Notes: generated from the sequence alone by a model not told the origin. 64,000 nt of DNA from Pseudomonadota bacterium (GCA_018062345.1 JAGOSL010000002.1:130192-194191); one strand, 5' to 3'. Positions 20,999 through 58,145 are shown, counted from the first letter of the stretch. Made by a program: numbers and translations.

Positions 20999-22534
20999 AT
21001 GAAGGCACTTCGTTTAGTTTTTTGGGATCAGTTATCTCTTTCTCTATCTTCATTAAAAGATGTTGGCCCTCATGATATTGTTTTAATGTGTGAATTACGG
21101 AATGAAGTAACGCGCGTTAAACATCACCCTAAAAAAATTGCATTATGGTTTTCAGCTATGCGCCATTTTGCCGAAGAATTAACTAATAAAGGGTTGAATG
21201 TTCGGTATATTGATTTTAATGATTCGTTGAATACCCATAATCTTACTGAAGAAGTTAAAAGGGCAGTTAATAGTAGTTTGATCAAGAAAATTATTGTCAC
21301 AGAGCCAGGAGAATATCATTTTCAAGAAACCATAAAATCATGGGAAAAAGCTCTAGATGTAGATGTGGAAATTCGCGCAGATGATCGATTTTTATGCGGC
21401 ATCGAAGAATTTAAAGAATGGGCTAGCACTAAAAAAGAGCTGAGAATGGAATACTTTTATCGGAATATGCGCAAAAAGTATCACATCTTAATCGAGCCAG
21501 ACGGACAACCCACAGGCGGGCTTTGGAACTACGATAAAGAAAATCGCAAACCTCTATCTAGGGATATTATCCCTATAAAGCGTATGATTCATAAAAAATC
21601 GGCGATTTTAATGAGCGTTTTAGAATTGGTTCGTGCCAATTTTAATAGTCATTTCGGGGACTTAGATCCATTTTATTATGCCATTACCCGTGATCAAGCG
21701 TTGATGGAGTTGGATCATTTTATTGATCAAATTTTACCACACTTTGGTGATTACCAAGATGCTATGCTGAAGGGGGATGCTTATCTTTATCATTCTCTTT
21801 TGTCTTCATATATTAATATTGGTCTTCTCTTACCCCTTGAAATATGTCAAAAAGCTGAAGCAGCCTATAGAAGAGGTAAGGTGTCTCTTAATTCTGCTGA
21901 AGGTTTTATCCGTCAAATTCTTGGATGGAGAGAATTTATAAGGGGGATTTATTGGTTTAAAATGCCTGGGTACGCTGATCTCAACACTCTTGATGCGAAA
22001 AATCCTCTCCCTAATTTTTACTGGGGGAAAAAAAACCATATGACTTGTGTGTCAGAGGCTGTTTCGGATACAAAAATTCACGCCTATTCTCATCATATTC
22101 AACGCCTGATGGTTACAGGAAATTTTGCACTTCTTGCAGGATTAGATGTTAAAGAGGTGCAAGAGTGGTATTTAGCGGTCTATAGTGATGCATATGAGTG
22201 GGTTGAAATGCCCAATACTCTTGGTATGACCCTTTTTGGTGATGGAGGGGTTGTTGCTAGTAAGCCTTATGCCGCAAGTGGTCAATACATCAATAAAATG
22301 AGTAACTTTTGCAAACATTGCGCTTATGATGTAAAAGATATGACGGGTCCTAAAGCTTGCCCATTTAATGCGCTGTATTGGAATTTTTTACAACGCCATC
22401 GCGAGTCATTTTCAAAAAATCCTCGCCTTTCTTTTATGTACAGTACCTGGGATAAGTTTGATATCTCTAAAAAAAATGCCATCATCTCCAAGGCTGCTGA
22501 TATTTTGAAAAAAATGGAAGAGGGAACTCTTTGA
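20999..22534 (+). CDS. cryptochrome/photolyase-family protein, FeS-BCP / bacterial (6-4) photolyase-like (COG3046 type)
   Basis: 511 aa. N-terminal LVFWDQLS..., a [12 protein letters not shown]-type helix, and a Cys set (MTCVSE...NFCKHCAYD...ACPFN) spaced like the 4Fe-4S ligands of CryB/PhrB. Confidence 0.75.
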
Positions 22535-22704
22535 TGTCCCAAAATATAAAAAAACAAGATCTTCCTCAAAAAGTATGTATCGTTTGCAAACGTCCCTTTA
22601 CCTGGAGAAAAAAATGGAAAAAAGTTTGGGATGACGTTAAATATTGCTCTTATAAATGTCAAAAGAATAAAAAATTTTTGGTATTAGTTCAGGAAAAAAC
22701 ATGA
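22534..22704 (+). CDS. DUF2256 zinc-ribbon protein (56 aa, absent from the ORF track)
   Basis: ATG overlaps the photolyase TGA (tgATGa). The translation contains [28 protein letters not shown], the DUF2256 signature. Confidence 0.7.
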
Positions 22705-22831
22705 AGAAAACTAGGATTATCAGAGCAGGTTTATTAGCTTTTACTTTGAAAGAAAAGCTTTCTCAAAAGTTAGTGACTGCGTATTTGAAATCTGCTGATT
22801 TTGTTGTTTCAAAAAATTCGAGTTACGTCTT

Positions 22832-23311
22832 ATGAAAATCAAAAAAACCCCCTACCTTTCTTTAATCATTTGGATTTTATCAATCATAACGATTGGAGGG
22901 CTTATTGGCTCTTTAACCAAGCCGCAGATCAGCACTTGGTATATAACCTTAAATCGTGCTCCACTAACACCACCAAATTACATATTTTCTGTGGCTTGGA
23001 CTTTATTATATGCAATGATTGGCACTTGTGGCTGGCTTATTTGGCGCGAAGATTCATTTGCCCGGCTAAAGGTTATAAAAACCATATTCGTGACTCAGCT
23101 TATTCTAAACTGGATTTGGACACCCGTATTTTTCTATTATCATTTACCCAACGTTTCTCTGCTAATTTTGTGTGCTATGGATATTCTGGTTGGTATAATA
23201 ATTTGCCAGGCCTATTTAACCAAGAGAGCGGTATTCTTTTTATTGATTCCCTATTTTTTATGGATTCTATTTGCTACCTACTTAAACTTTTATATTTGGT
23301 GGTTTAACTAA
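22832..23311 (+). CDS. tspO: tryptophan-rich sensory protein TspO/MBR
   Basis: 159 aa, 5 TM. W-rich motifs WY..L.RAP.TPPN..F...WTLLY..IG...W. Confidence 0.85.
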   Translation: MKIKKTPYLSLIIWILSIITIGGLIGSLTKPQISTWYITLNRAPLTPPNYIFSVAWTLLYAMIGTCGWLIWREDSFARLKVIKTIFVTQLILNWIWTPVFFYYHLPNVSLLILCAMDILVGIIICQAYLTKRAVFFLLIPYFLWILFATYLNFYIWWFN

Positions 23312-24201
23312 TATGTTTGCTGTAAATACGGAAGACATCCCCTTAAAAGACCAGATCTGTAATCTGGATAAATTAACTCTACACCTAATTTTTTAATAAT
23401 TTTTCTGTTATTAACTTTTTTGTTATCCGTAAAAAACATTTTTAAATTCTCTGAAATTTTTGCTTCTTCTTCCAGTATTTCTTTTAATTTATCCCTCTTC
23501 AAAATTGCAGCTCCAAACTGTTGGACTATGTGAAGCGGTGCAGGCTCATTATCGCTTATGTTATAAATTTCTCCTGGTGTCGGATGGTTTATTGATCCAA
23601 GAACTAATTCGCATATATCGTCTATGTGTATCCTAGAAAAATAATGATTTTTCTTAACGATCGTAAAATTTTTACCCATGAGAATGTCTTCTAAACAGTT
23701 TCTGCCAGGACCATAAATTCCTGATAATCGAAAGACATGTACAGGCGACTTAACTGTTTTATAAAGGCTTAACCATTGTATTTCTGCGTCTAATCTCGAT
23801 CTTGCTTTTTCATTGCTTGGATAGCATGGTGTTGTTTCATCAATCCAAGCACCTTTATGGTCTCCATAGACATTTGTTGACGAAAGGTATCCTGCCCACT
23901 GCAATGACGATTTTTTGGCTGCAATGATATTGCTATATTCTTGCAAGACCGGATCTGCATTTTTCTCATTTGGCGGAATGGTAGTCACAATTACATTAGA
24001 ATCTTCAATAATTTCTGGAAGAGTGGGGTCAAAAAAATTGATGAATCTGAGATTTTCCTTTTCAACTGGAATCCCGATCTCAATTTTTCTTGAGGTGCAT
24101 ACAACATTCCAGCCAAGATGATTAAATATTTTAATCAAAGACTTCGATACATAACCGTGACCAAAAATTATTGCTTTAACTTTATTAGGTAATAGGCGCA
24201 T
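23308..24201 (-). CDS. NAD(P)-binding epimerase/dehydratase-like (extended SDR) protein
   Basis: N-terminal Rossmann-like IIFGHGYVS, SSTNVYG, IYGPGR. 297 aa. Confidence 0.55.
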   Translation of the reverse strand: MRLLPNKVKAIIFGHGYVSKSLIKIFNHLGWNVVCTSRKIEIGIPVEKENLRFINFFDPTLPEIIEDSNVIVTTIPPNEKNADPVLQEYSNIIAAKKSSLQWAGYLSSTNVYGDHKGAWIDETTPCYPSNEKARSRLDAEIQWLSLYKTVKSPVHVFRLSGIYGPGRNCLEDILMGKNFTIVKKNHYFSRIHIDDICELVLGSINHPTPGEIYNISDNEPAPLHIVQQFGAAILKRDKLKEILEEEAKISENLKMFFTDNKKVNNRKIIKKLGVELIYPDYRSGLLRGCLPYLQQTY

Positions 24202-24242
24202 GTGACTTTATTGAAAGCTATCAAGCCAGACGTTGCCTGAGT

Positions 24243-24872
24243 TCATATAGGGAAACATAGTAGCTCACTGATTGACTCACTGACTGTCTCAAACCTTGCA
24301 AATAACTGGCCATCGTAATCATCATCTCCAATAGCAATCGCTGCCATATTTAGGTTTTTGGCAAATTCCCAGTCAGTAATGCTATCTCCAATATAAACAG
24401 TATCGCTAGCATTTAATTTGAAATGTTCCAGAGCAACTAAACCCATTTCAGGATTAGGCTTATCAAAAGCAGTGTCTCCCGACCCCAGAACTAAATCAGC
24501 GGGAATATTAAATAATTCAATTTCTTCACGTAAAAGACCACCTTTTTTATTGCTGATGATTGCAATAATTTTCTCAGCCTTTTTTAATGAGTTTAGCAAG
24601 GGAAGCGTTCCGTCATACAATTTTATATCCTTTTTATTTTCATTAATTGATTTATAAAAAACGTCTAGCGCTTCTTTCCAGTCATTTCCAAATAGCTTAG
24701 GAAAACTTTCTCGCGAGGAAAGTCTGGCTCGGATTTTAACTTCCTCCATGGAAATTTCTGCTCGTCCAAAATGTTTTAATGTAACATTTGTAGCTTTGAA
24801 AAGAGTCGGCCATGTATCAACTAAAGTATTATCCCAATCGAAAAATACTGCTTTGAATTTTTGCTTTATCAT
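24243..24872 (-). CDS. HAD-superfamily phosphatase (phosphoglycolate phosphatase-like)
   Basis: Motif I FFDWDNTLVD, motif II ISNK, motif IV GDSITD. Its ATG overlaps the secretin TGA (ATGA). Confidence 0.75.
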   Translation of the reverse strand: MIKQKFKAVFFDWDNTLVDTWPTLFKATNVTLKHFGRAEISMEEVKIRARLSSRESFPKLFGNDWKEALDVFYKSINENKKDIKLYDGTLPLLNSLKKAEKIIAIISNKKGGLLREEIELFNIPADLVLGSGDTAFDKPNPEMGLVALEHFKLNASDTVYIGDSITDWEFAKNLNMAAIAIGDDDYDGQLFARFETVSESISELLCFPI

Positions 24873-26536
24873 TTTAAGGGTCTCGGGTCTGTTGTGTATT
24901 CGCTCATTAATCGATGGTCAGCGCCATCAAGCGTGGCTCCATTATCCATAATTGTAGCTTTTAAGACAATCACTAATTCCACAATCGTGTCCCCTTCTGT
25001 CAAACTACCTGTTAGATCACGCACTAAAGGTATTTCATCTAGCCCAGGAACTCCTTGTCTGTGCTCTGATGAACGCACTTCCATTAAGCCCCCAAGAATA
25101 GCCATTTCTTTGTCTTGCAGTCTTAGAACTGAGTCAATTTCTCGTACTTCTACAACTGGAATCATTGATTGAGTTGGCGATTTAGAAGCATTTGTTTCGC
25201 TGCTAATAGATGCGTTAAAAGCAATATCAATAGCTGGGTCTGCAACGGTTTGGGTAAGCCTTGATATGCTTGGTCTTAAAAATAATATTATTTCACCAGT
25301 TTGTGGGTCAATTGAAGGCTGCACCAGCATAATTAATCCAATAGGAACTGTCTGAATATCACTCGATACAGTAGTGCTTTCTCGGTTGTTCTGTGAATTA
25401 TACATTTTGTCATAGTTAAGTCTGAAATAGACTTTATTTTGTGCAACTTTCAGTATGGCTGCTTGATTGTTCATAACAGTAAGACGCGGGCTTGATAACG
25501 TGCGAACTAGCCCGAATTCTTGTAAAGTATTAGCAATAGCTGAAAATTTTGTACCATCTGCTCCAAAGCTAATCATGTCGGTTTGGGCAGTAGTTGGGTC
25601 TAAAAAAATACCTTTTCTAGTCATGTCACCAAAGTTTGCTCGCACTTGAAGATCACTATTGGTCCCAACTGTATGCCAATTAATACCGCTCCTGTACTCA
25701 TCTTTCAGTGTTACTTCAATGATTTTTGCCTCTATTAAAACTTGGCAACAAGCTATTTGGCGCAGTTTTTTTAAATATAATTCTACCTGCTGATGTTGCT
25801 TTCTATTGGCATGTAAGGATATCAATCCTGCTTGCCTATGCATTGAATACGCCCCTTTTTCCGATCCAGCATCCAAAATGGTTTTTAAGTTTTGCTCTAA
25901 TTCATCCCAAAAGTCATTTTTGGTCGTGGCCTTTAATGCGCTTTTTGACACATTGTCGCTCATATTTGTTTTTGAGGGTCCAACACTTGAAAATACATCT
26001 GAAGCAATGGATAGTTGGTCTTCGCTGGTACGAGCAAGATTCAAGAACTGCACATTATAATTTTGTGAATATGCAATATCACGTTCTATGCGAATGGCAT
26101 TATCAATAACATCAAATCTTAAATTTGCCATCTCACACATAGATTTTATTACATCTATGAATGGGCGTTTTTTTGCCGTGAAAATAATCTTTGCATCAAT
26201 TGTGTGATCTAGTTGCAAATCAACATCTGCTTGTCGAGCTAACTCAATAAAAATATTTTTAAGGGGAACTCCTTCCGAAACCGAAATACTAACAGGCTGA
26301 TACATCATCTTAGGCAGTTTTGGAATTTTTACAGATCGAGATATTTTTTTAGCTAGTGGCCCTACTGTAAAATCAGTCGGTTGAACTAAATTCTTTGCTT
26401 CTTGTTTGCTTATTTTTGGCATTAGAGGTTGATGATCAACCATTTCTCTGCAGCCTGCCAACATTAAGAAAAGTGAAAAAAATAAAGCTAGCAATTTATA
26501 TCTCCATTTTACATCACCATCTGCTAAGTGAAACAA
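24869..26536 (-). CDS. lipoprotein secretin (MshL / type IVb-pilus-secretin-like)
   Basis: Lipobox LFLMLAGC. C-terminal secretin domain (RTLSSPRLTVMNNQAAILKV...IPVVEVREIDSVLRLQDKEMAILGGL...GVPGLDEIPL...ELVIVLKATI). TTG start assumed. Confidence 0.8.
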   Translation of the reverse strand: MFHLADGDVKWRYKLLALFFSLFLMLAGCREMVDHQPLMPKISKQEAKNLVQPTDFTVGPLAKKISRSVKIPKLPKMMYQPVSISVSEGVPLKNIFIELARQADVDLQLDHTIDAKIIFTAKKRPFIDVIKSMCEMANLRFDVIDNAIRIERDIAYSQNYNVQFLNLARTSEDQLSIASDVFSSVGPSKTNMSDNVSKSALKATTKNDFWDELEQNLKTILDAGSEKGAYSMHRQAGLISLHANRKQHQQVELYLKKLRQIACCQVLIEAKIIEVTLKDEYRSGINWHTVGTNSDLQVRANFGDMTRKGIFLDPTTAQTDMISFGADGTKFSAIANTLQEFGLVRTLSSPRLTVMNNQAAILKVAQNKVYFRLNYDKMYNSQNNRESTTVSSDIQTVPIGLIMLVQPSIDPQTGEIILFLRPSISRLTQTVADPAIDIAFNASISSETNASKSPTQSMIPVVEVREIDSVLRLQDKEMAILGGLMEVRSSEHRQGVPGLDEIPLVRDLTGSLTEGDTIVELVIVLKATIMDNGATLDGADHRLMSEYTTDPRPLK

Positions 26537-26688
26537 AAGTAATAGGACTTGAGTAGCTATCAGATTTTATATATTGATTCATATTAACAATAGAAATCTA
26601 AGCACTTCCTGTTTTATAAAACGAAATGCAACACCAAGATGTTTGTTAAAAAGTAGACATAAGTAATTGGTTTTGGATAAAAGCTACT

Positions 26689-28509
26689 CTAAAGAAGTGG
26701 CTCTTCTTGGTGCAAAAGCTCTTTAAGATTTTTTGGGATACAGATCCATGTTTCAATGTTATGTTGCAAAGCACGCTCCATAAGAATCTTACCTTGCTTT
26801 GTGGCTCCAGTATGGATAAGAAAAATTCCTTCAAGCCAGAGACCAAAAAGATCTTGTGAGTTTCTAGAAAGTATGGCGTTTATAAGGCCTTTTGCTTTTG
26901 TAAAATCATTGTTCTCAATAAGTTCGCTGATATATTGAACCAATAAATCACTTCTTTTGGGTGCTTTTTGTTGAATAGCGCTTGCAATGCCATCGAATAA
27001 AAATTCTTTTTCAATTGTAGATCCTTGGAAATGTCTCATTGCATGCAGTAATGCTATATCTAGAATTAATGGACTGGTTTTTGAATCATAATTTTTAAAT
27101 ATTAAATCTAGCTCATTCATCGTTGCCTGAGAGGGGGGCTGCTTCATTTTCTTTAAAATGCTCAAAGTGAAATGCCCAAGATGGAATCCCCTGTAATTAT
27201 AAGGTTGTTTTATATCACTTGCAGTTGGTAATTTCTTACTATGAGTAAATCTAAAAAATAAAGATTTTTGATTTGCAGGATATAAGATTGCTGTGTTCCA
27301 GTAAGTTACTGCTGCATAAGCACAAAAAATTGTTGAAATCCATAACCATAAAATAGTTAAAGGAGCTCTGGTGATGGTAATTCTATGCCGATTAAATATA
27401 GAAAAGCCCACTATTAAAAAAGGCCAGACACATACTAAGGTGAACCATGTGGATGTTAAGCATCCAAAAAGTATCACGAATATGAAAATGTGAATTCTAC
27501 TCTTTCTAGTGGTAGGTTCAGATAATGGCGTAACCAGCAAAGTAATGTAAAGAATTAGTCCGATTATTCCTATACTGAAAAGTGTTTCAGCGCCAAAATG
27601 CATGCAGTGGAAGTCTAGTCTGTCAATTCCATCCCAACTAGGCTTCCAAGAATTATCTTGAAAAAATGTAACAGGAAGCCTTGTTATTTGTTTTTGCAAA
27701 TTTTCAAAATAATATCCCCATCCATTGCCAGATAATAGTTTTAGTGGATTGTCGTTCCAGGTCAGCACATAACTCTGTAGGGCTAATTTTCTGGATTCTA
27801 GTGAAGAAAATACAGGCCATTTCTCAACAATATGCTTAGCGCCTAGAACGTATATAGCTATTATCGTTCCAAACGGAATACTTGCACATAAATATTTTTG
27901 CAAACGTTGTCTGTGTTTTATTATAGGCCAAACACATAAGCTTAAAGCAAGCGCTGCCCATGCTGTTTTATTGTGCGATAATAGCAAGAGCAGGCAGCTA
28001 AGCAAGAGAAGAATTTTTTGTTGTGTCTTGCTTTTTAAGTGTGTGCTTACCGCATAAATTCCTAGTGCGATTGGTGCTAGAAAAGCTCCAAAAACGTAAG
28101 GAAGCCAATCTGGATTAACTTTTAAACCATGCTGGGGATGATGCAGAAAAACTAAAATTCCCGCAACAATACCTGCGAAAACCGCAGACCAATATATAAT
28201 GCTTTTTTCAGAGGAATTATCGATTGCAAAAGATAAAAGAGATAAACCGCAAAATAGCACTGACCCTTCTCCTAGCAAAGGGCTGCCTAAATGGTGCACG
28301 ATGGAATTGTTGGCCCATAATGTTGAAAATAAAGAAAAAAGGCCGAAACCAAAGAAAATTAATGTGTGAGCTGAGCAATACAGCTTTCTTTTTAGGCTCC
28401 ATAAAATAATCAAACATAAGCCCAGAACTGAAAATATCAAATGTGCTGTAGCCAAAACGCATTCTGAATCAACCCATATGCCAATCCTAAATGGTGGAAG
28501 CGCCATCAA
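26689..28509 (-). CDS. O-antigen ligase-like (Wzy_C) polytopic membrane protein with C-terminal TPR-like region
   Basis: At least 10 TM segments. Wzy_C-like loop plus MHFGAETLFSIGIIGLILY. Soluble C-terminal ~190 aa with TPR-like helices. This is the PglL/PilO-type architecture. Confidence 0.6.
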   Translation of the reverse strand: MMALPPFRIGIWVDSECVLATAHLIFSVLGLCLIILWSLKRKLYCSAHTLIFFGFGLFSLFSTLWANNSIVHHLGSPLLGEGSVLFCGLSLLSFAIDNSSEKSIIYWSAVFAGIVAGILVFLHHPQHGLKVNPDWLPYVFGAFLAPIALGIYAVSTHLKSKTQQKILLLLSCLLLLLSHNKTAWAALALSLCVWPIIKHRQRLQKYLCASIPFGTIIAIYVLGAKHIVEKWPVFSSLESRKLALQSYVLTWNDNPLKLLSGNGWGYYFENLQKQITRLPVTFFQDNSWKPSWDGIDRLDFHCMHFGAETLFSIGIIGLILYITLLVTPLSEPTTRKSRIHIFIFVILFGCLTSTWFTLVCVWPFLIVGFSIFNRHRITITRAPLTILWLWISTIFCAYAAVTYWNTAILYPANQKSLFFRFTHSKKLPTASDIKQPYNYRGFHLGHFTLSILKKMKQPPSQATMNELDLIFKNYDSKTSPLILDIALLHAMRHFQGSTIEKEFLFDGIASAIQQKAPKRSDLLVQYISELIENNDFTKAKGLINAILSRNSQDLFGLWLEGIFLIHTGATKQGKILMERALQHNIETWICIPKNLKELLHQEEPLL

Positions 28510-28754
28510 AAACAGCCAAAAGCTAGCAGCTATACAAATAAATAGGCATTTTTCAAAAAAATAGCTTACTCTCTTTATTGTAATCTCCGCATTTTCAGCT
28601 AGTGTTGTTTGTTAACTTTTGCTTAGTTTTTTTGATAAAGTAAGTTTTATCTTCCTTATGATGTCTTTAAATATTTAGAACCGTGTTTAAATAACAACGG
28701 TTGCCTGAAATAATAGCTAAAATATGAAATCAGTAGTAAGAAAAGACTTCATAT

Positions 28755-29741
28755 TTGTTAGTCTATATTCGTAAAGTTATAGATTTTTATCCTGTGGGCA
28801 ATTTTTGCGCGCTATTTTTATTTTTAATCGCACCCCTTCTAGGTAGCGTTGCCATTCCTTCTGTGAATCACCAGCCGGCAGTTCAAAGTCAAAACGTTGT
28901 AGGCGATACAGCAGGTGAGTCGAACGAGCCAGTCGAACAAATTACTGAAGCTCCTTCTTTAAAAGCTGCACCTATTAATCCTGATGAGCCTCAATCTTTT
29001 AAGCTTATGCCTCATAAGGCAGTTTATGAAATACATTTGCATCCAGATCCTCTTAAAAAACCAAAGGACCCTACAATTAGCGATGTGACTGGTACCGGTT
29101 CAATTGAGATTATCAAAACTAAGGAAGGTTGGGTATACCGTCAAAATTTGGCTGTACAAATTCACTATCACGATGGCACAACAACAACCATTGAGAGAAA
29201 TATTGCTTCTTGGGAATCTCCAACAGAAATATCTTTTCACATTGAAAATTTTCGTGATGGTGTGACAGAATCCCTTCTGCAAGGTGGAGCCGAAGCAACA
29301 GAAGAGGGAATTTGGAGTGTGTATTTTCAAAAACCTGAAATGGATGGCTTTATAACAGACCAACCTCTTACTTTTCCGATAATGCATCTTGAAAAAGTGC
29401 TTGAAACTATCAAAAAGGGAAACTGTATGAAGGTAGGGTGCATTCTTTCTAATCAGATTGTCTTTTCATATGAGCTGCAAGCACAAGTGCGAATTGATAC
29501 GATCGTGATTCCATTAAAAGGAGAAAGATTCTCTTTAAAAGATAGCTCATTGTTGCCCTCGAATAAGCTTTGGCGTCTCCAAGAGGCCTTATATGAATTG
29601 CAGTCAAATAATTCTGTTCCTGACTATGAAGAAAGCAACATCGATATATTTTCCACAGGCGTTATTAGTGCAATGGAAACAACGTGGGGAGAAGGTATAA
29701 CAGTTGTTTTAAAGCTTAAAGAGCTGACGGTTTATCAATAA
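28755..29741 (+). CDS. DUF1849 / EipB-like periplasmic protein
   Basis: Signal-like N-terminus, then PHKAVYEI...GW...SWES...F.DG...LTFPIMHLEKVLETIKKG, resembling the alphaproteobacterial DUF1849 pattern (PHRAVYDL...FPT.H). TTG start. Confidence 0.5.
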   Translation: MLVYIRKVIDFYPVGNFCALFLFLIAPLLGSVAIPSVNHQPAVQSQNVVGDTAGESNEPVEQITEAPSLKAAPINPDEPQSFKLMPHKAVYEIHLHPDPLKKPKDPTISDVTGTGSIEIIKTKEGWVYRQNLAVQIHYHDGTTTTIERNIASWESPTEISFHIENFRDGVTESLLQGGAEATEEGIWSVYFQKPEMDGFITDQPLTFPIMHLEKVLETIKKGNCMKVGCILSNQIVFSYELQAQVRIDTIVIPLKGERFSLKDSSLLPSNKLWRLQEALYELQSNNSVPDYEESNIDIFSTGVISAMETTWGEGITVVLKLKELTVYQ

Positions 29742-33242: not shown

Positions 33243-33245
33243 ATG

Positions 33246-33884
33246 CTAAAAACGATAATAAATGATGCAATCGGGATTTTTGTTATCCAAATTCAAATGT
33301 CCGTCTCTTATGCATCTTCCTGTAGCTCCTGGTGCATCTTTCACGATTAATTGCCCTTGATTGAGGTCAACTGCGCTACTTCCTTGATCAATTTTATTTT
33401 TCAAAGCTTGAGCTTGTTTTGGGGTTAAAAGGCCAGAGCCTTCTTCTTTTGCTAACATAAGCCAATGTCCAGGCATTTCTGCTGAGGGTTGAAACACAAC
33501 AGTGTATTTCCCGCCAAGCTTCGAGGCTGGTGCTTTGTCACCATTGATAATAGATGCCTTACTTAAGTGCTGCCAGAAAAGATCTGCCTCAACACCTGTA
33601 ATCTGGCCATTACCATCGCCAGATGTTGTGCCTGTGAAATGCATTGTTGCTCTGGGATCATCCCCAGGAAGAGACTGATAAATTTCTTGATACGTGTTGA
33701 CAGCTAGCGAGTAATGTTGAAAATCTTGAACAACAGAGCGAATTTTTGCATTTCCTAAAAGTTCTTGACCTTTAAAAACAGCTCCGGTGATAAGCCCAAT
33801 TACTACCAGCACAATAGACATTTCTATCAAAGAGAAAGCTGGAACTACCATGGTCAGTGGCTTTTTCCATCTGCTATTTCTCAT
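33246..33884 (-). CDS. type IV pilin-like / pseudopilin protein (prepilin-type N-terminal methylation domain)
   Basis: Leader MRNSRWKKPLTMVVPA, then FSLIEMSIVLVVIGLITGAVF (F1...E5 hydrophobic helix). C-terminal Cys pair GRCIRDGHLNLDNKNPDC resembles a pilin D-region. Its stop lies 3 nt before the truB start. Confidence 0.7.
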   Translation of the reverse strand: MRNSRWKKPLTMVVPAFSLIEMSIVLVVIGLITGAVFKGQELLGNAKIRSVVQDFQHYSLAVNTYQEIYQSLPGDDPRATMHFTGTTSGDGNGQITGVEADLFWQHLSKASIINGDKAPASKLGGKYTVVFQPSAEMPGHWLMLAKEEGSGLLTPKQAQALKNKIDQGSSAVDLNQGQLIVKDAPGATGRCIRDGHLNLDNKNPDCIIYYRF

Positions 33885-34064: not shown

Positions 34065-36140
34065 TTATGCAGCGCCTGCTGCTTCAGTTTGCTTTGAGAG
34101 GTATGGCGCCAAGGATTGTTGCAGTGGTGATGTAACAGATGCTTTTAGAGTGCTTTCATCTACTACTGACGTTTGGGGGTTAGGCGCCAAATTTTCGCCA
34201 TTATTTATTACTTCATCGCCTGCGGAGTTATCAAGAGGAAGAGTTTGTTGTTGCTCCATATTCGTGCCGTCATCTGCTAAACCATTTGCAACGGGTTTTG
34301 TTACTTCGTCGCCTGAGGAGTTATCAAGAGGAAGAGTTTGTTGTTGCTCCATATTCGTGCCGTCATCTGCTAAACCATTTGCAACGGGTTTGGTTACTTC
34401 GTCGCCTGCGGAGTTATCAAGAGGAAGAGTTTGTTGTTGCTCCATATTCGTGCCGTCATCTGCTAAGCTATTTGCAACGGGTTTGGTTACTTCGTCGCCT
34501 GCGGAGTTATCAAGAGGAAGAGTTTGTTGTTGCTCCACATTCGTGCCGTCATCTGCTAAACCATTCGATTGAGAAGCTAAATCTCCAGCAGGGGCATTTA
34601 GAAGGGTAGGCGATAACATTGCGTTATCATCTTTAGTTTTTGCTGTGGCCACTTGTATAATAGCGTTATGAGCTTTATCTAGTCTTTTCTCTGCTTCTAG
34701 TTTTTCTTCTTCTGCCTTTTGTGCCAGAATAGCTGCCTGTTTAGCTTCTTCTTCTGCTGCTAATTTTTCCTGTTCAGCCTTTTGCGCTAAGATTGCCGCT
34801 TGTTTAGCCTCTTCTTCTGCAGCCAGTTTTTCTTCTTCTGACTGCTCACGGGCTGCTTTTTCTAGAATTAATTCATTTTGTGTTGCATCTAAAATTGCTT
34901 TAGCGTTTTCAGCTTCTAGATCAGCTTTTGCTTTTTCTAATTTTTGTTCGTCGGCTGTAGTAAGTGCCTGAGCGGCCAACTCTTTAGCAGCATCTAGCTG
35001 TGCTTGCATAAGTCTCATTGATTCCATGGCTGCTTCATATTCTTTTACAGCTAGGTTATGTTTTTCTTGTAATGATTTCATTTCATCAGGTGAAAAAGTA
35101 GTTGACCTTAGGTGCTCCACATATCTGCGTGCTGTTTGAGGATCTATTTCCGATGAAAACATTAGATTAACAGATATACCTTCTCCAGATATGCGAATTT
35201 GTCGCAGGTTATTACTATTTTCATCATCTAAAGCTAAAGAAAACATTGCAACAGCTACATTTGGAAGTGTACTGAATAGTTCTAAAAGTTTGCTTACAAG
35301 TTTTAAAAAGGTTTCTTGGGTAGCTTTAGGATCAGAAGTTGTGCAGACAAGATTCATTTGTTTGCCCTCAAATATACCGTCTCCAAACTGAAATTTCTTG
35401 GTTAGAAGGCCTTCTGAATTTGTAGCTGCTGGAAGATCAGTATTAACAGATTGCCCTGGTTCAGCAGCAACAGCATATGCCCCTGATTTTAACTTTTCTT
35501 GAAGTTCAGCTAACTCTTCTTTCGCCTTTTGTAATGCTTTCTCCTTTTCTGTGGCTTCTAAATCAGGGACTTCATAAACATAAACGGATGCTTGCTTGCC
35601 AAGAATTAAAGACGCATTTGGATCAGGCTCTTCTGTGTATGGGTATAAATAATTATTTTCGTCTTTATACATCCACCATTCTTTTGGATCTCCAGAATAT
35701 CCGGGAAAATTACCGATGTTTGCATTTGCAGGAACAAGCTTAATCTCATCCTTGTTATCATTTTTTCTTAATACGTATACAATTGCCGCACCTTCTGGCA
35801 TCTTTTCTCCTGCCATATACGGAAAATTTTGTTTGCCAGTTGGGTCGTATATTCCACCATCTTGGAATTTAAGTTTTTTAGTAATCATGCCTGGATGCAT
35901 TGATTTATCAAAAAATTGAACTTCAATTTCATTGCCGTCCAAATTGATCGCTTTGTATTTTTTTTCTGATTTTTCCTCTGAAGAATGTTCTTTATTTTCT
36001 TCTGAAATAGCAGAGTCTGTTGCAGCTAGAGCAGGGCTCTGCCCTTCAATTGAAGCAGAATCTTCTGCTGTTGCATGCATTTCATTTATCCAAGAGAACG
36101 AAGAACCTAAAAGTAAGGAAAATAATAATTTTTTATTCAT
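34065..36140 (-). CDS. secreted repeat protein (coiled-coil A/E/K-rich region plus 4 x 31-aa C-terminal repeats)
   Basis: Signal peptide MNKKLLFSLLLGSSFSWINEMHA. EEKLAAEEEAKQAAILAQKAE repeats. NGLADDGTNMEQQQTLPLDNSAGDEVTKPVA x4. Confidence 0.6.
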   Translation of the reverse strand: MNKKLLFSLLLGSSFSWINEMHATAEDSASIEGQSPALAATDSAISEENKEHSSEEKSEKKYKAINLDGNEIEVQFFDKSMHPGMITKKLKFQDGGIYDPTGKQNFPYMAGEKMPEGAAIVYVLRKNDNKDEIKLVPANANIGNFPGYSGDPKEWWMYKDENNYLYPYTEEPDPNASLILGKQASVYVYEVPDLEATEKEKALQKAKEELAELQEKLKSGAYAVAAEPGQSVNTDLPAATNSEGLLTKKFQFGDGIFEGKQMNLVCTTSDPKATQETFLKLVSKLLELFSTLPNVAVAMFSLALDDENSNNLRQIRISGEGISVNLMFSSEIDPQTARRYVEHLRSTTFSPDEMKSLQEKHNLAVKEYEAAMESMRLMQAQLDAAKELAAQALTTADEQKLEKAKADLEAENAKAILDATQNELILEKAAREQSEEEKLAAEEEAKQAAILAQKAEQEKLAAEEEAKQAAILAQKAEEEKLEAEKRLDKAHNAIIQVATAKTKDDNAMLSPTLLNAPAGDLASQSNGLADDGTNVEQQQTLPLDNSAGDEVTKPVANSLADDGTNMEQQQTLPLDNSAGDEVTKPVANGLADDGTNMEQQQTLPLDNSSGDEVTKPVANGLADDGTNMEQQQTLPLDNSAGDEVINNGENLAPNPQTSVVDESTLKASVTSPLQQSLAPYLSKQTEAAGAA
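34208..34570. repeat. 93-bp tandem repeat, about 3.9 near-identical copies, in-frame within the CDS
   Basis: Units start at 34208, 34301, 34394 and 34487 (ttacttcRtcgcctgMggagttatcaagaggaagagtttgttgttgctcca...). Only a few substitutions between copies. Confidence 0.9.
34700..34835. repeat. about 63-bp tandem repeat (about 2 copies) encoding the A/E/K-rich 21-aa unit
   Basis: gccttttgYgcYaRaatWgcYgcYtgtttagcYtcttcttctgc recurs with a 63-bp period. Coordinates are approximate. Confidence 0.6.
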
Positions 36141-37068: not shown

Positions 37069-37145
37069 TGGCGTTCCCGACGGGATTCGAACCCATGGCC
37101 TCAAGATTAGGAATCTTGCGCTCTATCCTGCTGAGCTACGGGAAC
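37069..37145 (-). tRNA. tRNA-Arg (anticodon CCT), CCA encoded
   Basis: Reverse complement: GTTCCCG-TA-GCTC-AGCAGGATA-GAGC-G-CAAGA-TTCCTAA-TCTTG-AGGCC-ATGGG-TTCGAAT-CCCGT-CGGGAAC-G-CCA. Confidence 0.92.
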
Positions 37146-37243: not shown

Positions 37244-38821
37244 TTAAGAACTTACAGCCAAAGAAGAAATAATTTGGATGGAGTCAGCATGGCCTAAATT
37301 GGCAGATTTTCTGAGCAATTCAATAGCTTGTTGTTTTAAAGAATTGGTTTGAGGCTGCTTTTGCAAAAGCCCTACAGCAAAATTATATAGCATGATTGGG
37401 AGGTTAGCTCTAGCGTTTTGATTCCCAAGTATTGCTGCCTCTTCACAAAAATTTATACCTAGCTGTTCATTTTTAGCAGTAAAATTACCTAAGTAAAGCC
37501 GTGATGCATATTCGTAAAGCATAATGGGAAGATTATGTTCTGCTTCTTTATTGCCTAAGTCAGCTGCTTCTGTGCAAAATTCTATAGCTTTGGGCATGCT
37601 TGCTTTGAATCCGTGCTTTCCATGAAAATGCCATGCAGAAATATGTTTTAGCATGGTAGGATTTCCTATGCTTTTTAAGAATTCAATTTCTTGGCAAGAA
37701 TTTATATTACTGGATCGCTTATTTGCTTCTCTCATCGTCATTGTATAGATTTTGCTAATTTGAGTTTCTGGAGCTTTGGCAAGGGGCCTTCTTAAAATTT
37801 CTGCTAGTTCGGGATCGGCTTCTCTTGTGAAAAATAAACGTAAAATACCCATACCACCAACATGACCTTCGGTCATTTCTGAAGTCGCTGGATCATATAT
37901 GTATGACAGAATTATTGTGTTGGTAGTTAGGCCAAGCTGAGAAAGAATAGCTTCTGAAGCAAAATCTGCCATTGCAGAGCGACAGTGGATATCAACGGGT
38001 ATATCATTGGCTATAAGTTCAAAGGCTCTTTTATTTAAAGAAGTTTCTAGCCATGCATAATTTACTTTTTCTTCGGCCGTGAAAACTATTGGATAAGCAA
38101 TTGCACCGTGTATTGTCCATCCTTTGTAGGTAGTGCTGGCTGCCATATCTTCGTAAATTTTATTCAAAGTTAGATTGGGTGCAAAAATATCAAAGATTTT
38201 TTTTGTGAGAATTACCATTGGTTGGTTTGTTTCTAAAAACTGTTCCAAGGACTCAGCTAAAGCTGAATTCCAAGATTTTTGTTCGTGTGTTTGCGCATAT
38301 TTTTTAAGGGCTTCAATAAATTTTGAAGAAGATACATTTTCTGCATTAACAGTTGTCCATTGTGTTTCAAAGGTCTCATCATCGTTGCTCATGGATTTTG
38401 CTATCATTGTATCAATAGCTAAAATGGTGGTTTGTTGAGGAGTGATAGCTGTTGTTTCAGTTACTCCATAAAAATCTACTAGTATGTTACGTTTGCCAGG
38501 AAATTTGTGCCGTATGCGTATAACCGAATAAATAAGTTTTGCGGGCGACGTTTCTACCTCACCATATCTACCTGCAAGGGTTGTTGCTATTTCTTTAGTG
38601 TAATATTTGAAAGCTTCGAAAGCTGCTAAAGCATCTGCTTTATCACGCTCAACTTCTAATATATCGATCCATTGAGCTGAATTTATTTCTGCTGGTTTGG
38701 TTAAAGATTCATGATTATGTGTGAATCCAGGAATAGGGTCTTCGTGCTGCCAAACCTGAGCAGTTGCGCTTAGTGCTGGCAGCATAATTAGCAATGTCAA
38801 AAGCGCTAGAAATTTTTTCAT
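37244..38821 (-). CDS. secreted protein with C-terminal Sel1-like (SLR/TPR) repeats
   Basis: Signal peptide MKKFLALLTLLIMLPALSATA. C-terminal repeats AADLGNKEAEHNLPIMLY / AAILGNQNARANLPIMLY / SANLGHADS resemble Sel1 repeats. The N-terminal ~380 aa is unrecognised. Confidence 0.55.
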   Translation of the reverse strand: MKKFLALLTLLIMLPALSATAQVWQHEDPIPGFTHNHESLTKPAEINSAQWIDILEVERDKADALAAFEAFKYYTKEIATTLAGRYGEVETSPAKLIYSVIRIRHKFPGKRNILVDFYGVTETTAITPQQTTILAIDTMIAKSMSNDDETFETQWTTVNAENVSSSKFIEALKKYAQTHEQKSWNSALAESLEQFLETNQPMVILTKKIFDIFAPNLTLNKIYEDMAASTTYKGWTIHGAIAYPIVFTAEEKVNYAWLETSLNKRAFELIANDIPVDIHCRSAMADFASEAILSQLGLTTNTIILSYIYDPATSEMTEGHVGGMGILRLFFTREADPELAEILRRPLAKAPETQISKIYTMTMREANKRSSNINSCQEIEFLKSIGNPTMLKHISAWHFHGKHGFKASMPKAIEFCTEAADLGNKEAEHNLPIMLYEYASRLYLGNFTAKNEQLGINFCEEAAILGNQNARANLPIMLYNFAVGLLQKQPQTNSLKQQAIELLRKSANLGHADSIQIISSLAVSS

Positions 38822-55620: not shown

Positions 55621-55637
55621 TATTTAAATTTAAAGAA

Positions 55638-55778
55638 CTTTTTGTGTTCGGGAATTCGGTTTAAATCCGAAGCTGTCCCTCGCAACTGTAAGTTGGGAGC
55701 GCACTTTATATACCACTGGAGTAATCTGGGAAGGTTAAGTGTTTGCTGTGAACAACGAGCCAGGAGACCGGCAAAAAG
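55638..55778 (+). promoter_or_regulatory. cobalamin (B12) riboswitch aptamer
   Basis: P1 CTTTTTG/CAAAAAG. Conserved core GGGAAttcGGTttAAATCCgaaGCTGTCCCtCGCAACTGTAAg. CCACTGGagtaatcTGGGAAGG. B12 box GAGCCAGGAGACCGGC. Lies about 90 nt upstream of btuB. Confidence 0.8.
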
Positions 55779-55869
55779 AGCGTCACTTTTTCTAGATTCG
55801 AGCGGTTGATCAAGAAGGGTAGCCTATGGGTGATGCGATTAATATTAACGCAACCTATAAGGGCAATTT

Positions 55870-57648: not shown

Positions 57649-58145
57649 AAATGCGTTTTTTACTAATTGGATCTGTTTTTTTTCATGGGTTGATTGCATT
57701 TTCTATTGGGCAGTATGTTTCATCTGAAAAATTAAAAACATCAAATAGTTTTCCAATTATTTTATTGAGTTCCACAAAAAAAAATGATGTGGAGATGGTA
57801 AGGAGTGGTTCTTCTAGAAAAGTTGCTCATTATCAAAATAAGAAAATGCCTAGTTCTAAAGAAAATAATATTGTGATGCAAACTTCTGATGCTTTGAAAG
57901 TTATTTACAATCCAGCTCCTGCTTACCCGGCTAATGCTAAAAGGAATGGTGAAGAGGGAATTTTTTCAGTGAAAATCATAGTTGGTATGAGTGGAAAAGT
58001 AGAGCATGTTGAGCTTGTGCCTATTAAAGGCAAAAAAGAATTTTTTGAAGAAGAATTATTACGCACCTTGAAAACTTGGCAATTCAAACCTCATGATAGA
58101 GAAATTTCGTTTGAGGTTCCTATTTCATTTCAATTGGAAGAGTAA
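57642..58145 (+). CDS. tonB: TonB-like energy transducer
   Basis: N-terminal TM anchor. C-terminal TonB_C motif PAPAYPANAKRNGEEGIFSVKIIVGMSGKVEHVELV...LKTWQFKP. Overlaps the btuB stop by 7 nt. Confidence 0.65.
   Translation: MVKMRFLLIGSVFFHGLIAFSIGQYVSSEKLKTSNSFPIILLSSTKKNDVEMVRSGSSRKVAHYQNKKMPSSKENNIVMQTSDALKVIYNPAPAYPANAKRNGEEGIFSVKIIVGMSGKVEHVELVPIKGKKEFFEEELLRTLKTWQFKPHDREISFEVPISFQLEE

What the first reader, a model, noticed from the sequence alone, without database searches (positions are those of the whole stretch)
23308..28509. Minus-strand operon of O-antigen-ligase-like/TPR protein, lipoprotein secretin, HAD phosphatase (ATGA-coupled) and SDR, with no other pilus or secretion genes
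A secretin with a lipobox (LAGC) and an MshL/BfpB-like layout stands alone. No ATPase, platform protein, prepilin peptidase or alignment-complex genes are adjacent. Its neighbours are glycan-type enzymes. Upstream is a 606-aa Wzy_C/PglL-like polytopic protein with a TPR tail. Downstream is a HAD phosphatase whose ATG overlaps the secretin TGA, implying translational coupling. Then comes an epimerase/dehydratase-like SDR. Coupling a secretin to sugar-phosphate-type enzymes is not a standard T2SS or T4P layout. It suggests either a glycosylated-pilin export module, with the pilin candidate at 33246-33884, or a secretin-dependent glycoconjugate pathway not described as such.
Basis: partly seen in the sequence, partly recalled or inferred. 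Interest (0 to 1): 0.65.

Follow-up and report, generated by a model that had tools for sequence, protein, structure and literature searches.

The report
Orphan pilus secretin among unrelated neighbours
The four genes are real, but they are not a sugar-export module: the secretin is one scattered piece of a small pilus-type machine, its pilin lies 6.7 kb away, and the 'glycan' neighbours sit beside it only in this organism and its closest relatives.

Summary
All four minus-strand ORFs exist as described. They are an SDR, a HAD phosphatase with a 4-nt ATGA overlap, a lipoprotein secretin (LAGC) and a 606-aa polytopic protein with a TPR-like tail.

The window comes from a Holosporales/Paracaedibacteraceae-like alphaproteobacterium. 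Related MAGs are named Ca. Finniella and Ca. Odyssella.

About 70 related loci show no co-conservation of the four genes:
- The SDR follows only in same-species contigs.
- The HAD follows only in relatives whose secretin is at least 72% identical (8 of 8 such loci).
- At 47-64% identity, none of 23 loci has the HAD.
- In sister genera, the 606-aa gene is separated from the secretin by 1-2 opposite-strand genes.
- In all more distant relatives the 606-aa gene is absent from the neighbourhood.

In relatives at 35-42% identity, the secretin heads a compact operon. The order is secretin, pilin, second pilin, PilB/GspE-like ATPase, GspF-like platform. The first pilin is a homologue of the window's gene at 33246-33884.

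So the secretin and that pilin are dispersed parts of a type IV filament machine. The other neighbours are most likely incidental.

The 606-aa protein is a divergent WaaL/PglL-fold protein. Its essential histidine is replaced by methionine, and its function is unknown.

Verdict: an ordinary case of operon break-up in a streamlined genome, and of low interest.

The parts
24869..26536 (-). Lipoprotein secretin of 555 aa. It is the outer-membrane channel of a dispersed type IV filament (pilus or pseudopilus) machine.
   Evidence: Pfam Secretin 95.6 bits. The best NCBIfam match is MshL at 197 bits, below its cut-off. The family profile hits GspD (E~1e-17) and BfpB (E=2e-13). The AF2 model's best PDB match is BfpB 9u5s (E=5e-19). 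Relatives are 72-84% identical in sister genera.
26450..26461 (-). Lipobox L26-A27-G28-C29 of the secretin signal peptide.
   Evidence: Read from the translation. A lipobox cysteine is present in 85 of 113 homologues; the rest are calls that start at an internal Met.
33246..33884 (-). Type IV pilin or pseudopilin of 212 aa, the filament subunit that partners the secretin. It now lies 3 nt upstream of truB.
   Evidence: The N-terminus is ...VPA|FSLIEMSIVLVVIGLI with Glu5. TIGR02532 scores 17.4 bits, above its 16.3 cut-off. In 11 relatives its homologue lies directly downstream of the secretin.
24243..24872 (-). HAD-IA phosphatase of 209 aa. It is probably co-transcribed with the secretin but is not part of the filament machine.
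   Evidence: HAD_2 117.9 bits. The best equivalog is phosphoglycolate phosphatase at 66 bits against a 225 cut-off. It follows the secretin in 8/8 relatives at 72-84% identity and in 0/23 loci at 47-64%.
24869..24872 (-). ATGA overlap of the secretin stop codon and the HAD start codon.
   Evidence: Sequence. The same -4 overlap occurs in 6 of 8 sister-genus loci. In L054, L064 and L069 the pilin gene occupies this overlapping slot instead.
23308..24201 (-). Atypical SDR-fold protein of 297 aa, an incidental neighbour.
   Evidence: Epimerase 31.3 bits over residues 94-215 only. It is present downstream of the HAD only in same-species contigs. In sister genera a branched-chain amino acid transporter and mreBCD-pbp2-rodA follow instead.
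26689..28509 (-). Divergent WaaL/PglL-fold (Wzy_C superfamily) membrane protein of 606 aa, with an extra transmembrane helix and a periplasmic TPR-like tail. Function unknown; not shown to be linked to the secretin.
   Evidence: The family profile hits WaaL 7tpg (E=3e-7) and OTase 9rmk (E=5.6e-7). 23/47 members hit Wzy_C and none hits PglL_A. AF2 pLDDT is 75.7, and Foldseek finds WaaL (prob 0.99) and MamA TPR (prob 1.0). Topology is from the positive-inside rule.
27598..27609 (-). Motif H301-C-M303-H304 in the large periplasmic loop of the 606-aa protein. The position of the essential His of WaaL/PglL is Met here.
   Evidence: Alignment A2 shows HSHN in the wider family, HSHH in intermediates and HCMH in the window clade. 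The mapping to NmPglL R298/H349 comes from the hmmsearch alignment and PMC3643930.
26692..27222 (-). C-terminal TPR-like helical domain of the 606-aa protein (about residues 430-605).
   Evidence: The AF2 helices have pLDDT 84-93. MamA TPR matches have prob 1.0 and profile E=0.0016.
28510..28587 (-). A conserved in-frame 26-codon extension upstream of the called start of the 606-aa gene, with no ATG, GTG or TTG. The start codon is therefore uncertain.
   Evidence: The 87%-identical relative L080 starts at an ATG here, which is destroyed in the window. The changes are 6 synonymous and 3 conservative.
28755..29741 (+). EipB-like periplasmic protein. It is the conserved divergent neighbour of the 606-aa gene.
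   Evidence: PF08904 83 bits. It is adjacent and divergent in L007-L012 and L016 and also in L031 and L080.
26537..26688 (.). A 152-bp spacer between the 606-aa gene and the secretin. Sister genera carry 1-2 opposite-strand genes for secreted proteins at this position.
   Evidence: The spacing there is 825-2089 bp, holding ORFs of 204-334 aa on the other strand.

Best explanation
**What the secretin is.** It is the outer-membrane channel of a small type IV filament machine (a pilus or pseudopilus). The ancestral gene order is secretin, pilin, second pilin, PilB/GspE-like ATPase, GspF-like platform. In the Holosporales/Paracaedibacteraceae-like lineage of this window that operon has been broken up.
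- The secretin stays as a lone gene.
- The first pilin has moved 6.7 kb away, in front of truB-rpsO-pnp.
- The ATPase, platform and prepilin peptidase must be encoded outside the window (inferred).

**How it most likely works (inferred from the families).**
1. The secretin precursor is lipidated at Cys29 and sorted to the outer membrane.
2. It forms a multimeric gated pore.
3. A filament of the 212-aa pilin is assembled at the inner membrane by the ATPase and platform, and passes through the pore.

**The neighbours.** The HAD phosphatase, the SDR and the WaaL-fold/TPR protein are neighbours by recent rearrangement in a compact genome.
- The HAD is probably co-transcribed and translationally coupled to the secretin, but only as a passenger.
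- The WaaL-fold/TPR protein belongs with its conserved divergent partner, the EipB-like gene, and acts on some envelope substrate that is still unknown.
For: **Shown**
- Gene identities.
- Neighbourhood survey of the secretin family, about 70 loci:
  - The SDR follows only at >=99% identity.
  - The HAD follows in 8/8 loci at 72-84% identity and 0/23 at 47-64%.
  - The 606-aa gene lies upstream in 5/5 sister-genus loci, always with 1-2 opposite-strand ORFs between it and the secretin. It is absent from the upstream flank (about 1.5-10 kb sampled) of more distant loci.
  - At 47-64% identity the secretin is a lone gene among varying housekeeping genes.
- At 35-42% identity, 11 loci have a homologue of the window's 212-aa pilin directly after the secretin, with gaps of -4 to +17 nt. 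A twelfth (L077) has it one gene further on.
- In L059 the next genes are a second N_methyl pilin, a T2SSE+MshEN ATPase (386 bits) and a T2SSF platform (143 bits).
- The ATPase was found by tblastn in 10 loci. In 9 of them it is about 49-76% identical; the tenth, L052, is only about 30% identical and is a weaker case. The platform was found in 8 loci.
- The window's pilin has the class III signal motif with Glu5, and it aligns along its length with these pilins.
- The secretin is well conserved: 72-84% identity to sister genera, against 59-62% for the 606-aa protein in most of the same loci (69% over a partial match in L015). The lipobox is retained.
- A TXSScan survey reports 'incomplete type IV pili' in most Holosporales (PMC9992710).

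**Inferred**
- The direction of change, from operon to scattered genes.
- The presence of the ATPase and platform elsewhere in this genome.
- The function of the filament.
Against: - The genome outside the 64-kb window could not be searched. A working set of partner genes is therefore assumed, not shown.
- The pilin has Ala instead of Gly at position -1 of the prepilin cleavage site. Its closest relative L007 has Gly. This may lower processing.
- The HAD keeps an exact 4-nt overlap with the secretin in 6 of 8 sister-genus loci. This could reflect more than chance synteny.
- The 606-aa gene stays within about 2 kb of the secretin throughout the sister genera, so a clade-specific link cannot be excluded.
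Confidence: 0.75

Rival explanations
1. Glycosylated-pilin module. The 606-aa WaaL/PglL-fold protein is an O-oligosaccharyltransferase that glycosylates the 212-aa pilin before it is exported through the neighbouring secretin.
For: - The protein belongs to the Wzy_C superfamily, which contains PglL, TfpO and PilO.
- A periplasmic TPR-like tail could bind a protein acceptor.
- It lies within about 2 kb of the secretin in 5/5 sister-genus loci.
- The pilin is 4.7 kb further on.
Against: - 0 of 47 family members match the PglL_A motif.
- The His equivalent to NmPglL H349 is Met.
- No family member was found beside the intact secretin-pilin-ATPase-platform operon in 11 loci.
- None of four distant family members with context has a pilin or pilus-gene neighbour.
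- Opposite-strand genes lie between it and the secretin in sister genera.
Confidence: 0.08
2. Secretin-dependent glycoconjugate export. The secretin exports a polysaccharide or glycolipid made with the help of the HAD, the SDR and the WaaL-fold protein.
For: - The four genes lie on one strand with short gaps in this species.
- A preprint reports secretins needed for slime export in cyanobacteria and myxobacteria (10.1101/2022.03.08.483542, listed; abstract only read).
Against: - The four genes are not co-conserved.
- No glycosyltransferase, flippase or Wza/Wzc-type gene is in the region.
- The HAD and the SDR reach only generic family scores.
- The secretin's conserved partners in relatives are pilins, an ATPase and a platform.
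Confidence: 0.03
3. Relic. The filament machine is incomplete and non-functional in this lineage, and the secretin and pilin are leftovers on the way to loss.
For: - 'Incomplete type IV pili' are reported for most Holosporales (PMC9992710).
- No ATPase or platform is in the window.
- The pilin has Ala at -1.
Against: - The lone secretin is kept intact, with its lipobox, across many lineages at 47-84% identity.
- It is more conserved than its neighbours in most sister-genus loci.
- The pilin ORF is intact and 69% identical to L007's.
- Scattered genes are scored as 'incomplete' by tools that expect clusters.
Confidence: 0.1
4. True secretin-HAD pair. The HAD phosphatase has a role in the biogenesis or regulation of the secretin or the filament.
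For: The HAD follows the secretin in 8/8 sister-genus loci, 6 of them with the same ATGA overlap.
Against: - The pair is limited to one clade in which the whole region is syntenic (pnp, EipB-like, 606-aa gene, secretin, HAD).
- It is absent in 0/23 loci at 47-64% identity and from all loci with the intact operon.
- The HAD has no specific family assignment.
Confidence: 0.04

Closest known systems
BfpB, MshL and PilN-type lipoprotein secretins of type IVb and MSHA pili
   Same: - An N-terminal lipobox.
- An N-domain plus an N3-like domain plus a C-terminal secretin domain.
- The best structural match is BfpB 9u5s (E=5e-19).
- The best NCBIfam match is MshL.
   Different: - It scores below the MshL equivalog cut-off (197 against 250 bits).
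- It is not in an msh or bfp operon.
- By sequence profile it is about as close to T2SS GspD.
- In relatives its operon has only five genes.
Type II secretion and type IVa pilus machines (GspD/E/F/G, PilQ/B/C/A)
   Same: The relatives' operon encodes the core set of secretin, pilin-like subunits, a PilB/GspE-like ATPase (462 bits to both models) and a GspF-like platform (282 bits).
   Different: - All scores are below the equivalog cut-offs.
- No alignment-complex genes (PilMNOP, GspC/L/M) are in the operon.
- In the window's lineage the genes are scattered.
'Incomplete type IV pili' reported for Holosporales genomes (PMC9992710)
   Same: The same group of organisms. A secretin and a pilin are present without a clustered machine.
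   Different: That survey gives no gene-level account. Here the lone secretin is tied to an intact ancestral-type operon in more distant relatives.
WaaL O-antigen ligase (7tpg) and PglL O-oligosaccharyltransferase (9rmk)
   Same: - The 606-aa protein's family shares the fold and the Wzy_C core.
- Arg240 aligns with EcWaaL R288 / NmPglL R298.
- Lys181 aligns with R215 / R224.
   Different: - The essential His (H338 / H349) is Met303, with an invariant His304 next to it.
- There is an extra transmembrane helix and a periplasmic TPR-like domain.
- There is no PglL_A motif.
- It is not in an LPS locus and not beside a pilin.

Membership tests
Secretin (PF00263) | A C-terminal secretin domain above the Pfam gathering score | tested here: met
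   95.6 bits against 27.5, residues 338-530.
Secretin (PF00263) | Periplasmic N-domains in front of the secretin domain, and a fold like solved secretins | tested here: met
   The AF2 model has alpha/beta domains at 81-161 and 209-277 plus a beta domain at 324-530. Foldseek finds BfpB at E=5e-19, and PilQ, InvG and GspD at E<1e-13. Secretin_N_2 scores 23.0 bits, just under its 23.4 cut-off.
Secretin (PF00263) | A 12-17-mer gated pore in the outer membrane | not testable with these tools
   Needs biochemistry or cryo-EM.
MshL (TIGR02519 equivalog) | A score at or above the curated cut-off | tested here: not met
   197.4 bits against 250.2. The relative in L059 scores 220.7.
MshL (TIGR02519 equivalog) | Encoded in an MSHA-type operon (mshI-Q) | tested here: not met
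   It is a lone gene in the window. The relatives' operon has five genes only.
Lipoprotein (self-piloting) secretins such as BfpB and PilN | A signal peptide ending in a lipobox with an invariant Cys | tested here: met
   The lipobox is LAGC with Cys29. C29 is invariant in alignment A3. 85/113 homologues have a lipobox.
T2SS GspD (TIGR02517) | A score at or above the curated cut-off | tested here: not met
   98.6 bits against 351.
Type IV pilin / pseudopilin (gene 33246-33884) | A class III signal peptide: a short basic leader, a hydrophobic alpha1 helix and Glu5 | tested here: met
   The sequence is ...KKPLTMVVPA|FSLIEMSIVLVVIGLI. TIGR02532 scores 17.4 against 16.3. Pfam N_methyl scores 16.5, below its 21.2 cut-off.
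Type IV pilin / pseudopilin (gene 33246-33884) | Gly at position -1 of the cleavage site | tested here: not met
   The window has Ala, as do L054, L064, L065 and L067. L007 and most others have Gly.
Type IV pilin / pseudopilin (gene 33246-33884) | Encoded with secretin, ATPase and platform genes | tested here: met
   Not met in the window itself. Its homologues directly follow the secretin in 11 relatives, and ATPase and platform genes are encoded nearby in most of these loci.
Wzy_C superfamily (PF04932) | A Wzy_C domain above the gathering score | tested here: inconclusive
   The window protein scores 15.7 bits against 31.7. Its family does qualify. 23/47 members hit Wzy_C at E<0.001. In the sample with scores listed, two members exceed the cut-off (38.9 and 43.1 bits). 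The family profile hits WaaL 7tpg at E=3e-7.
WaaL O-antigen ligase | Three essential residues (E. coli R215, R288, H338; PMC3643930) | tested here: not met
   R240 aligns with R288 and is invariant. K181 aligns with R215. The H338 position is Met303 in the window clade.
WaaL O-antigen ligase | Located in an LPS core or O-antigen locus | tested here: not met
   Its neighbours are the EipB-like gene, pnp and the secretin. One distant member (L021) lies downstream of an HldE-like gene.
PglL-type O-oligosaccharyltransferase | The PglL_A motif (PF15864) | tested here: not met
   0/47 family members hit it at E<0.001.
PglL-type O-oligosaccharyltransferase | The essential His349 and adjacency to an acceptor such as a pilin | tested here: not met
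   Met303 occupies the H349 position. The pilin is 4.7 kb away with four genes between. None of four distant members with context has a pilin neighbour.
PglL-type O-oligosaccharyltransferase | Transfer of a lipid-linked glycan to Ser/Thr of a protein | not testable with these tools
   Needs an activity assay or glycoproteomics.
HAD-IA phosphatase | The HAD core with a DxD nucleophile motif | tested here: met
   HAD_2 scores 117.9 bits, and the motif is FFDWDNT. TIGR01549 scores 50.8 against 23.3.
Phosphoglycolate phosphatase (equivalog models) | A score at or above the curated cut-off | tested here: not met
   The best score is 66.3 bits against 225.
Extended SDR epimerase/dehydratase | A full-length match to the family, including the Rossmann N-terminus | tested here: inconclusive
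   Epimerase scores 31.3 bits, above its 20.9 cut-off, but aligns only to residues 94-215. All specific NCBIfam models are far below their cut-offs.

The most novel reading that the evidence does not exclude
The 606-aa protein could be the founder of an undescribed class of WaaL-fold enzymes. Its features are a periplasmic TPR-like domain and an essential histidine shifted by one residue (HSHN to HSHH to HCMH). Such an enzyme might modify an envelope protein: the pilin, the secretin, the conserved EipB-like neighbour, or, in distant relatives, the adjacent autotransporter-type protein. In the Finniella/Odyssella-like clade it could then be functionally tied to the nearby secretin.
Probability: 0.1. 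Interest if true: 0.55.

Novelty: new member of a known kind. Interest (0 to 1): 0.25.

Why it matters
The result removes a tempting but unsupported idea, a secretin used for glycoconjugate export. It replaces that idea with a testable account.

Holosporales-like symbionts keep a lone lipoprotein secretin and a displaced pilin. Both derive from a compact five-gene pilus-type operon that is still intact in more distant relatives. This explains why cluster-based tools report 'incomplete type IV pili' in this group. It also says which partner genes to look for elsewhere in these genomes.

The divergent WaaL-fold/TPR family, paired with an EipB-like gene, is a modest lead for work on the cell envelope.

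Tried and rejected
- An exact look-up of the 555-aa secretin found nothing, probably because public gene calls differ slightly. The HAD look-up worked.
- Pfam and NCBIfam gave nothing significant for the 606-aa protein directly. A profile search was needed.
- A second word-indexed protein search, with the wide alignment A2, added almost nothing and used the last search.
- Literature searches for pil genes in Paracaedibacter or Finniella found no gene-level inventory. The supplements of PMC9992710 hold no pil gene table.
- The promoter and terminator scan of 23000-29000 was no better than shuffled sequence. It does not settle the operon structure.
- Rfam found no regulatory RNA in the region.
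- I considered that the 606-aa protein is the organism's WaaL. I set this aside because of the His-to-Met change, the extra TPR domain and the lack of LPS neighbours. It is not excluded.
- I considered that the secretin is a decaying paralogue. I rejected this because of its high conservation and its retained lipobox.

Full report
**1. Observation**

- SDR, 23308-24201, 297 aa
- HAD, 24243-24872, 209 aa
- secretin, 24869-26536, 555 aa
- polytopic protein, 26689-28509, 606 aa

The HAD start overlaps the secretin stop as ATGA. The 606-aa gene and the secretin are 152 bp apart, and the HAD and the SDR are 41 bp apart.

Domain searches confirm three of the four calls directly:
- Secretin: 95.6 bits. 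The nearest NCBIfam model is MshL at 197 bits, under its 250 cut-off.
- HAD_2: 117.9 bits. The best specific model is phosphoglycolate phosphatase at 66 bits against a cut-off of 225.
- Epimerase: 31.3 bits, covering residues 94-215 of the SDR only.

The secretin signal peptide ends in the lipobox L26-A27-G28-C29. This cysteine is invariant in a 31-sequence alignment. It is present in 85 of 113 homologues, and the remainder are calls that begin at an internal Met.

An AF2 model of the secretin (pLDDT 67) shows two periplasmic alpha/beta domains and the beta-rich secretin domain. Its best solved match is the lipoprotein secretin BfpB (E=5e-19), followed by PilQ, InvG and GspD. By sequence profile it is closest to GspD (E~1e-17) and BfpB (E=2e-13).

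**2. The 606-aa protein**

It has no significant Pfam or NCBIfam hit of its own (Wzy_C E=0.014).
- A word-indexed search found only 27 relatives, down to 43% identity, none with a domain call.
- A profile search of 1.8 billion cluster representatives found 485 clusters of similar length.
- 23 of 47 sampled members hit Wzy_C, and none hits PglL_A.
- The family profile matches the solved WaaL 7tpg (E=3e-7) and an O-oligosaccharyltransferase, 9rmk (E=5.6e-7). The numbering of 9rmk fits Neisseria PglL (R298, H349).
- The AF2 model (pLDDT 75.7) matches WaaL (prob 0.99) for the membrane part. It matches MamA-type TPR proteins (prob 1.0) for residues of about 430-606.

Hydropathy and the positive-inside rule place the large loop (229-301) in the periplasm. 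They also place the TPR-like tail there, behind one extra transmembrane helix (inference).

PMC3643930 lists three residues as essential in WaaL and PglL. In the window protein:
- Arg240 (equivalent to R288/R298) is invariant.
- Lys181 stands at the R215/R224 position.
- The histidine position (H338/H349) is Met303.

The wider family has HSHN at this motif, intermediate members have HSHH, and the window clade has H-C-M-H with an invariant His304.

The protein nonetheless fails the tested defining features of both WaaL and PglL.

**3. Organism**

Relatives of the 606-aa gene in reference genomes are MAGs named Ca. Finniella, Ca. Odyssella, or simply Alphaproteobacteria. Same-species contigs come from freshwater metagenomes.

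The rest of the window is housekeeping: aminoacyl-tRNA synthetases, pnp, truB, mutS, fabF and lptAB.

**4. Are the four genes a unit?**

I compared three sets of loci:
- 8 same-species loci
- 10 genome loci found with the 606-aa protein
- 55 metagenome loci found with a secretin alignment, plus three looked up individually

Genes were called and labelled by BLAST against the window's proteins.

| Secretin identity to window | What sits around the secretin |
|---|---|
| >=99% | All four genes, as in the window |
| 72-84% | HAD follows in 8/8 loci (the same -4 overlap in 6, +12 nt in 2). The SDR never follows. |
| 47-64% (23 loci with usable downstream flank; one is named Holosporales) | No HAD, no 606-aa gene, no pilin. 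The neighbours are varied housekeeping genes. |

At 72-84% identity, a branched-chain amino acid transporter and mreBCD-pbp2-rodA come after the HAD. The 606-aa gene lies upstream in 5/5 of these loci, but 825-2089 bp away. One or two opposite-strand ORFs for secreted proteins of unknown family lie in between.

Four distant members of the 606-aa family with context have no pilus or secretin neighbour:
- Two sit divergently next to an autotransporter beta-domain gene.
- One sits downstream of an HldE-like gene.
- One sits among unrelated genes.

A fifth contig (L020) holds only the gene itself and gives no context.

In the window clade, the constant partner of the 606-aa gene is the divergent EipB-like gene.

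The four genes are therefore not co-conserved.

**5. What the secretin belongs to**

In relatives at 35-42% identity, the gene directly after the secretin is a homologue of the window's 212-aa gene at 33246-33884. This holds in 11 loci, with gaps of -4 to +17 nt. tblastn of L069's pilin against the window gives E=1e-18.

In L059 the genes that follow are:
- a second N_methyl pilin of 291 aa
- a 596-aa T2SSE ATPase with an MshEN domain
- a 403-aa T2SSF platform

The ATPase recurs in 10 loci by tblastn. In 9 of them it is about 49-76% identical, and the tenth (L052) is only about 30% identical and is a weaker case. The platform recurs in 8 loci.

NCBIfam places the ATPase equally near PilB and GspE (462 bits each). 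It places the platform nearest GspF (282 bits) and the secretin nearest MshL (221 bits). All are below the equivalog cut-offs.

The window's pilin has the class III leader ...VPA|FSLIEMSIVLVVIGLI with Glu5. It aligns with these pilins along its length, including a C-terminal Cys pair. It has Ala at -1 where its closest relative L007 has Gly.

The window holds no ATPase, platform or second pilin.

The simplest reading is inferred by parsimony. A compact operon (secretin, pilin, pilin, ATPase, platform) was broken up in the Holosporales-like lineages. The secretin was left alone, and the pilin now sits 3 nt upstream of truB-rpsO-pnp.

This fits a published TXSScan survey, which found 'incomplete type IV pili' in most Holosporales (PMC9992710).

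**6. How it most likely works**

- Shown: a conserved, intact lipoprotein secretin and a conserved pilin.
- Inferred from the families: Lol-dependent sorting of the lipidated secretin, multimeric pore formation, and passage of a filament. The filament would be built from the 212-aa pilin by an ATPase and platform encoded elsewhere.

The role of the filament (adhesion to the host, secretion or DNA uptake) is unknown.

The HAD is probably co-transcribed and translationally coupled. In L054, L064 and L069 the same overlapping slot is occupied by the pilin. The overlap therefore looks like a property of the secretin's 3' end in compact genomes, not evidence of shared function.

**7. Operon structure in the window**

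This cannot be settled. The promoter and terminator scan is no better than shuffled sequence, and Rfam finds nothing in the region.

The start of the 606-aa gene is uncertain. Twenty-six in-frame codons upstream of the called start are conserved with an 87%-identical relative, with 6 synonymous and 3 conservative changes. The relative's ATG, however, is destroyed in the window.

**8. Comparison with known systems, and verdict**

The secretin is a new member of the BfpB/MshL-like lipoprotein secretins. The machine it belongs to is a minimal type IV filament system that sits between the T2SS, T4P and MSH models. The 606-aa protein is a divergent WaaL/PglL-fold protein of unknown function.

Nothing supports a secretin-dependent glycoconjugate pathway. 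A pilin-glycosylation role for the 606-aa protein is not excluded, but it has no positive support beyond proximity within one clade.

Interest is low. The main value is the explanation of the orphan secretin, plus a small lead on the WaaL-fold/TPR family.

Noticed in passing
L054-L077 (e.g. L059:5842-12132, L056:1467-7804, L069:5716-12106): A compact five-gene type IV filament operon is found in uncultured relatives. The order is lipoprotein-type secretin, a pilin of about 212-229 aa, a pilin of about 290 aa, a PilB/GspE-like ATPase with an MshE-type c-di-GMP motif, and a GspF-like platform. All components score below every NCBIfam equivalog cut-off. No alignment-complex genes are in the operon.
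   Followed up: partly
window 27598-27609 (606-aa protein residues 301-304): The essential histidine of WaaL/PglL is Met in the window clade, with an invariant His one residue later. Intermediate family members carry both histidines (HSHH). This suggests a stepwise shift of the catalytic residue, or a changed activity.
   Followed up: partly
window 28510-28587: The 606-aa gene has a conserved in-frame 26-codon upstream extension that includes a hydrophobic segment. It has no ATG, GTG or TTG. The ATG used by an 87%-identical relative (L080) is destroyed in the window.
   Followed up: partly
window 28755-29741 with 26689-28509; L023:8683-12058; L024:8417-12043: The WaaL-fold/TPR gene is always divergently paired with an EipB-like gene in the window clade. 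In two distant relatives the divergent neighbour is instead an autotransporter beta-domain protein. Some distant members are fused to DUF192 (P0097, P0117).
   Followed up: no
window 34065-36140: A 691-aa secreted protein with a signal peptide, a long Glu/Lys/Ala-rich coiled-coil stretch and a 93-bp tandem repeat (3.8 copies, 34208-34565). It has no Pfam family. L007 has a partial homologue. It could be a surface or effector protein.
   Followed up: no
window 55625-58145: A cobalamin riboswitch (102 bits) lies in front of a TonB-dependent receptor and a TonB-like gene.
   Followed up: no
window 20999-23311: A cluster of a photolyase-related DPRP protein, a DUF2256 ORF, a 44-aa ORF and TspO. 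It is conserved in same-species contigs. TspO ends 4 nt into the convergent SDR gene.
   Followed up: no
window 33243-33248: The pilin gene ends 3 nt before truB. It is therefore embedded at the head of the truB-rpsO-pnp housekeeping cluster. The same order is seen in L007.
   Followed up: partly
L007:11861-12625, L016:12088-13674, L008, L015, L031: Sister genera carry one or two genes for signal-peptide proteins of unknown family between the 606-aa gene and the secretin. One of them has His/Glu-rich repeats. These genes are absent from the window.
   Followed up: partly
window 37244-38821: A 525-aa protein with Sel1 repeats (below the Pfam cut-off), next to a tRNA gene at 37072-37145.
   Followed up: no
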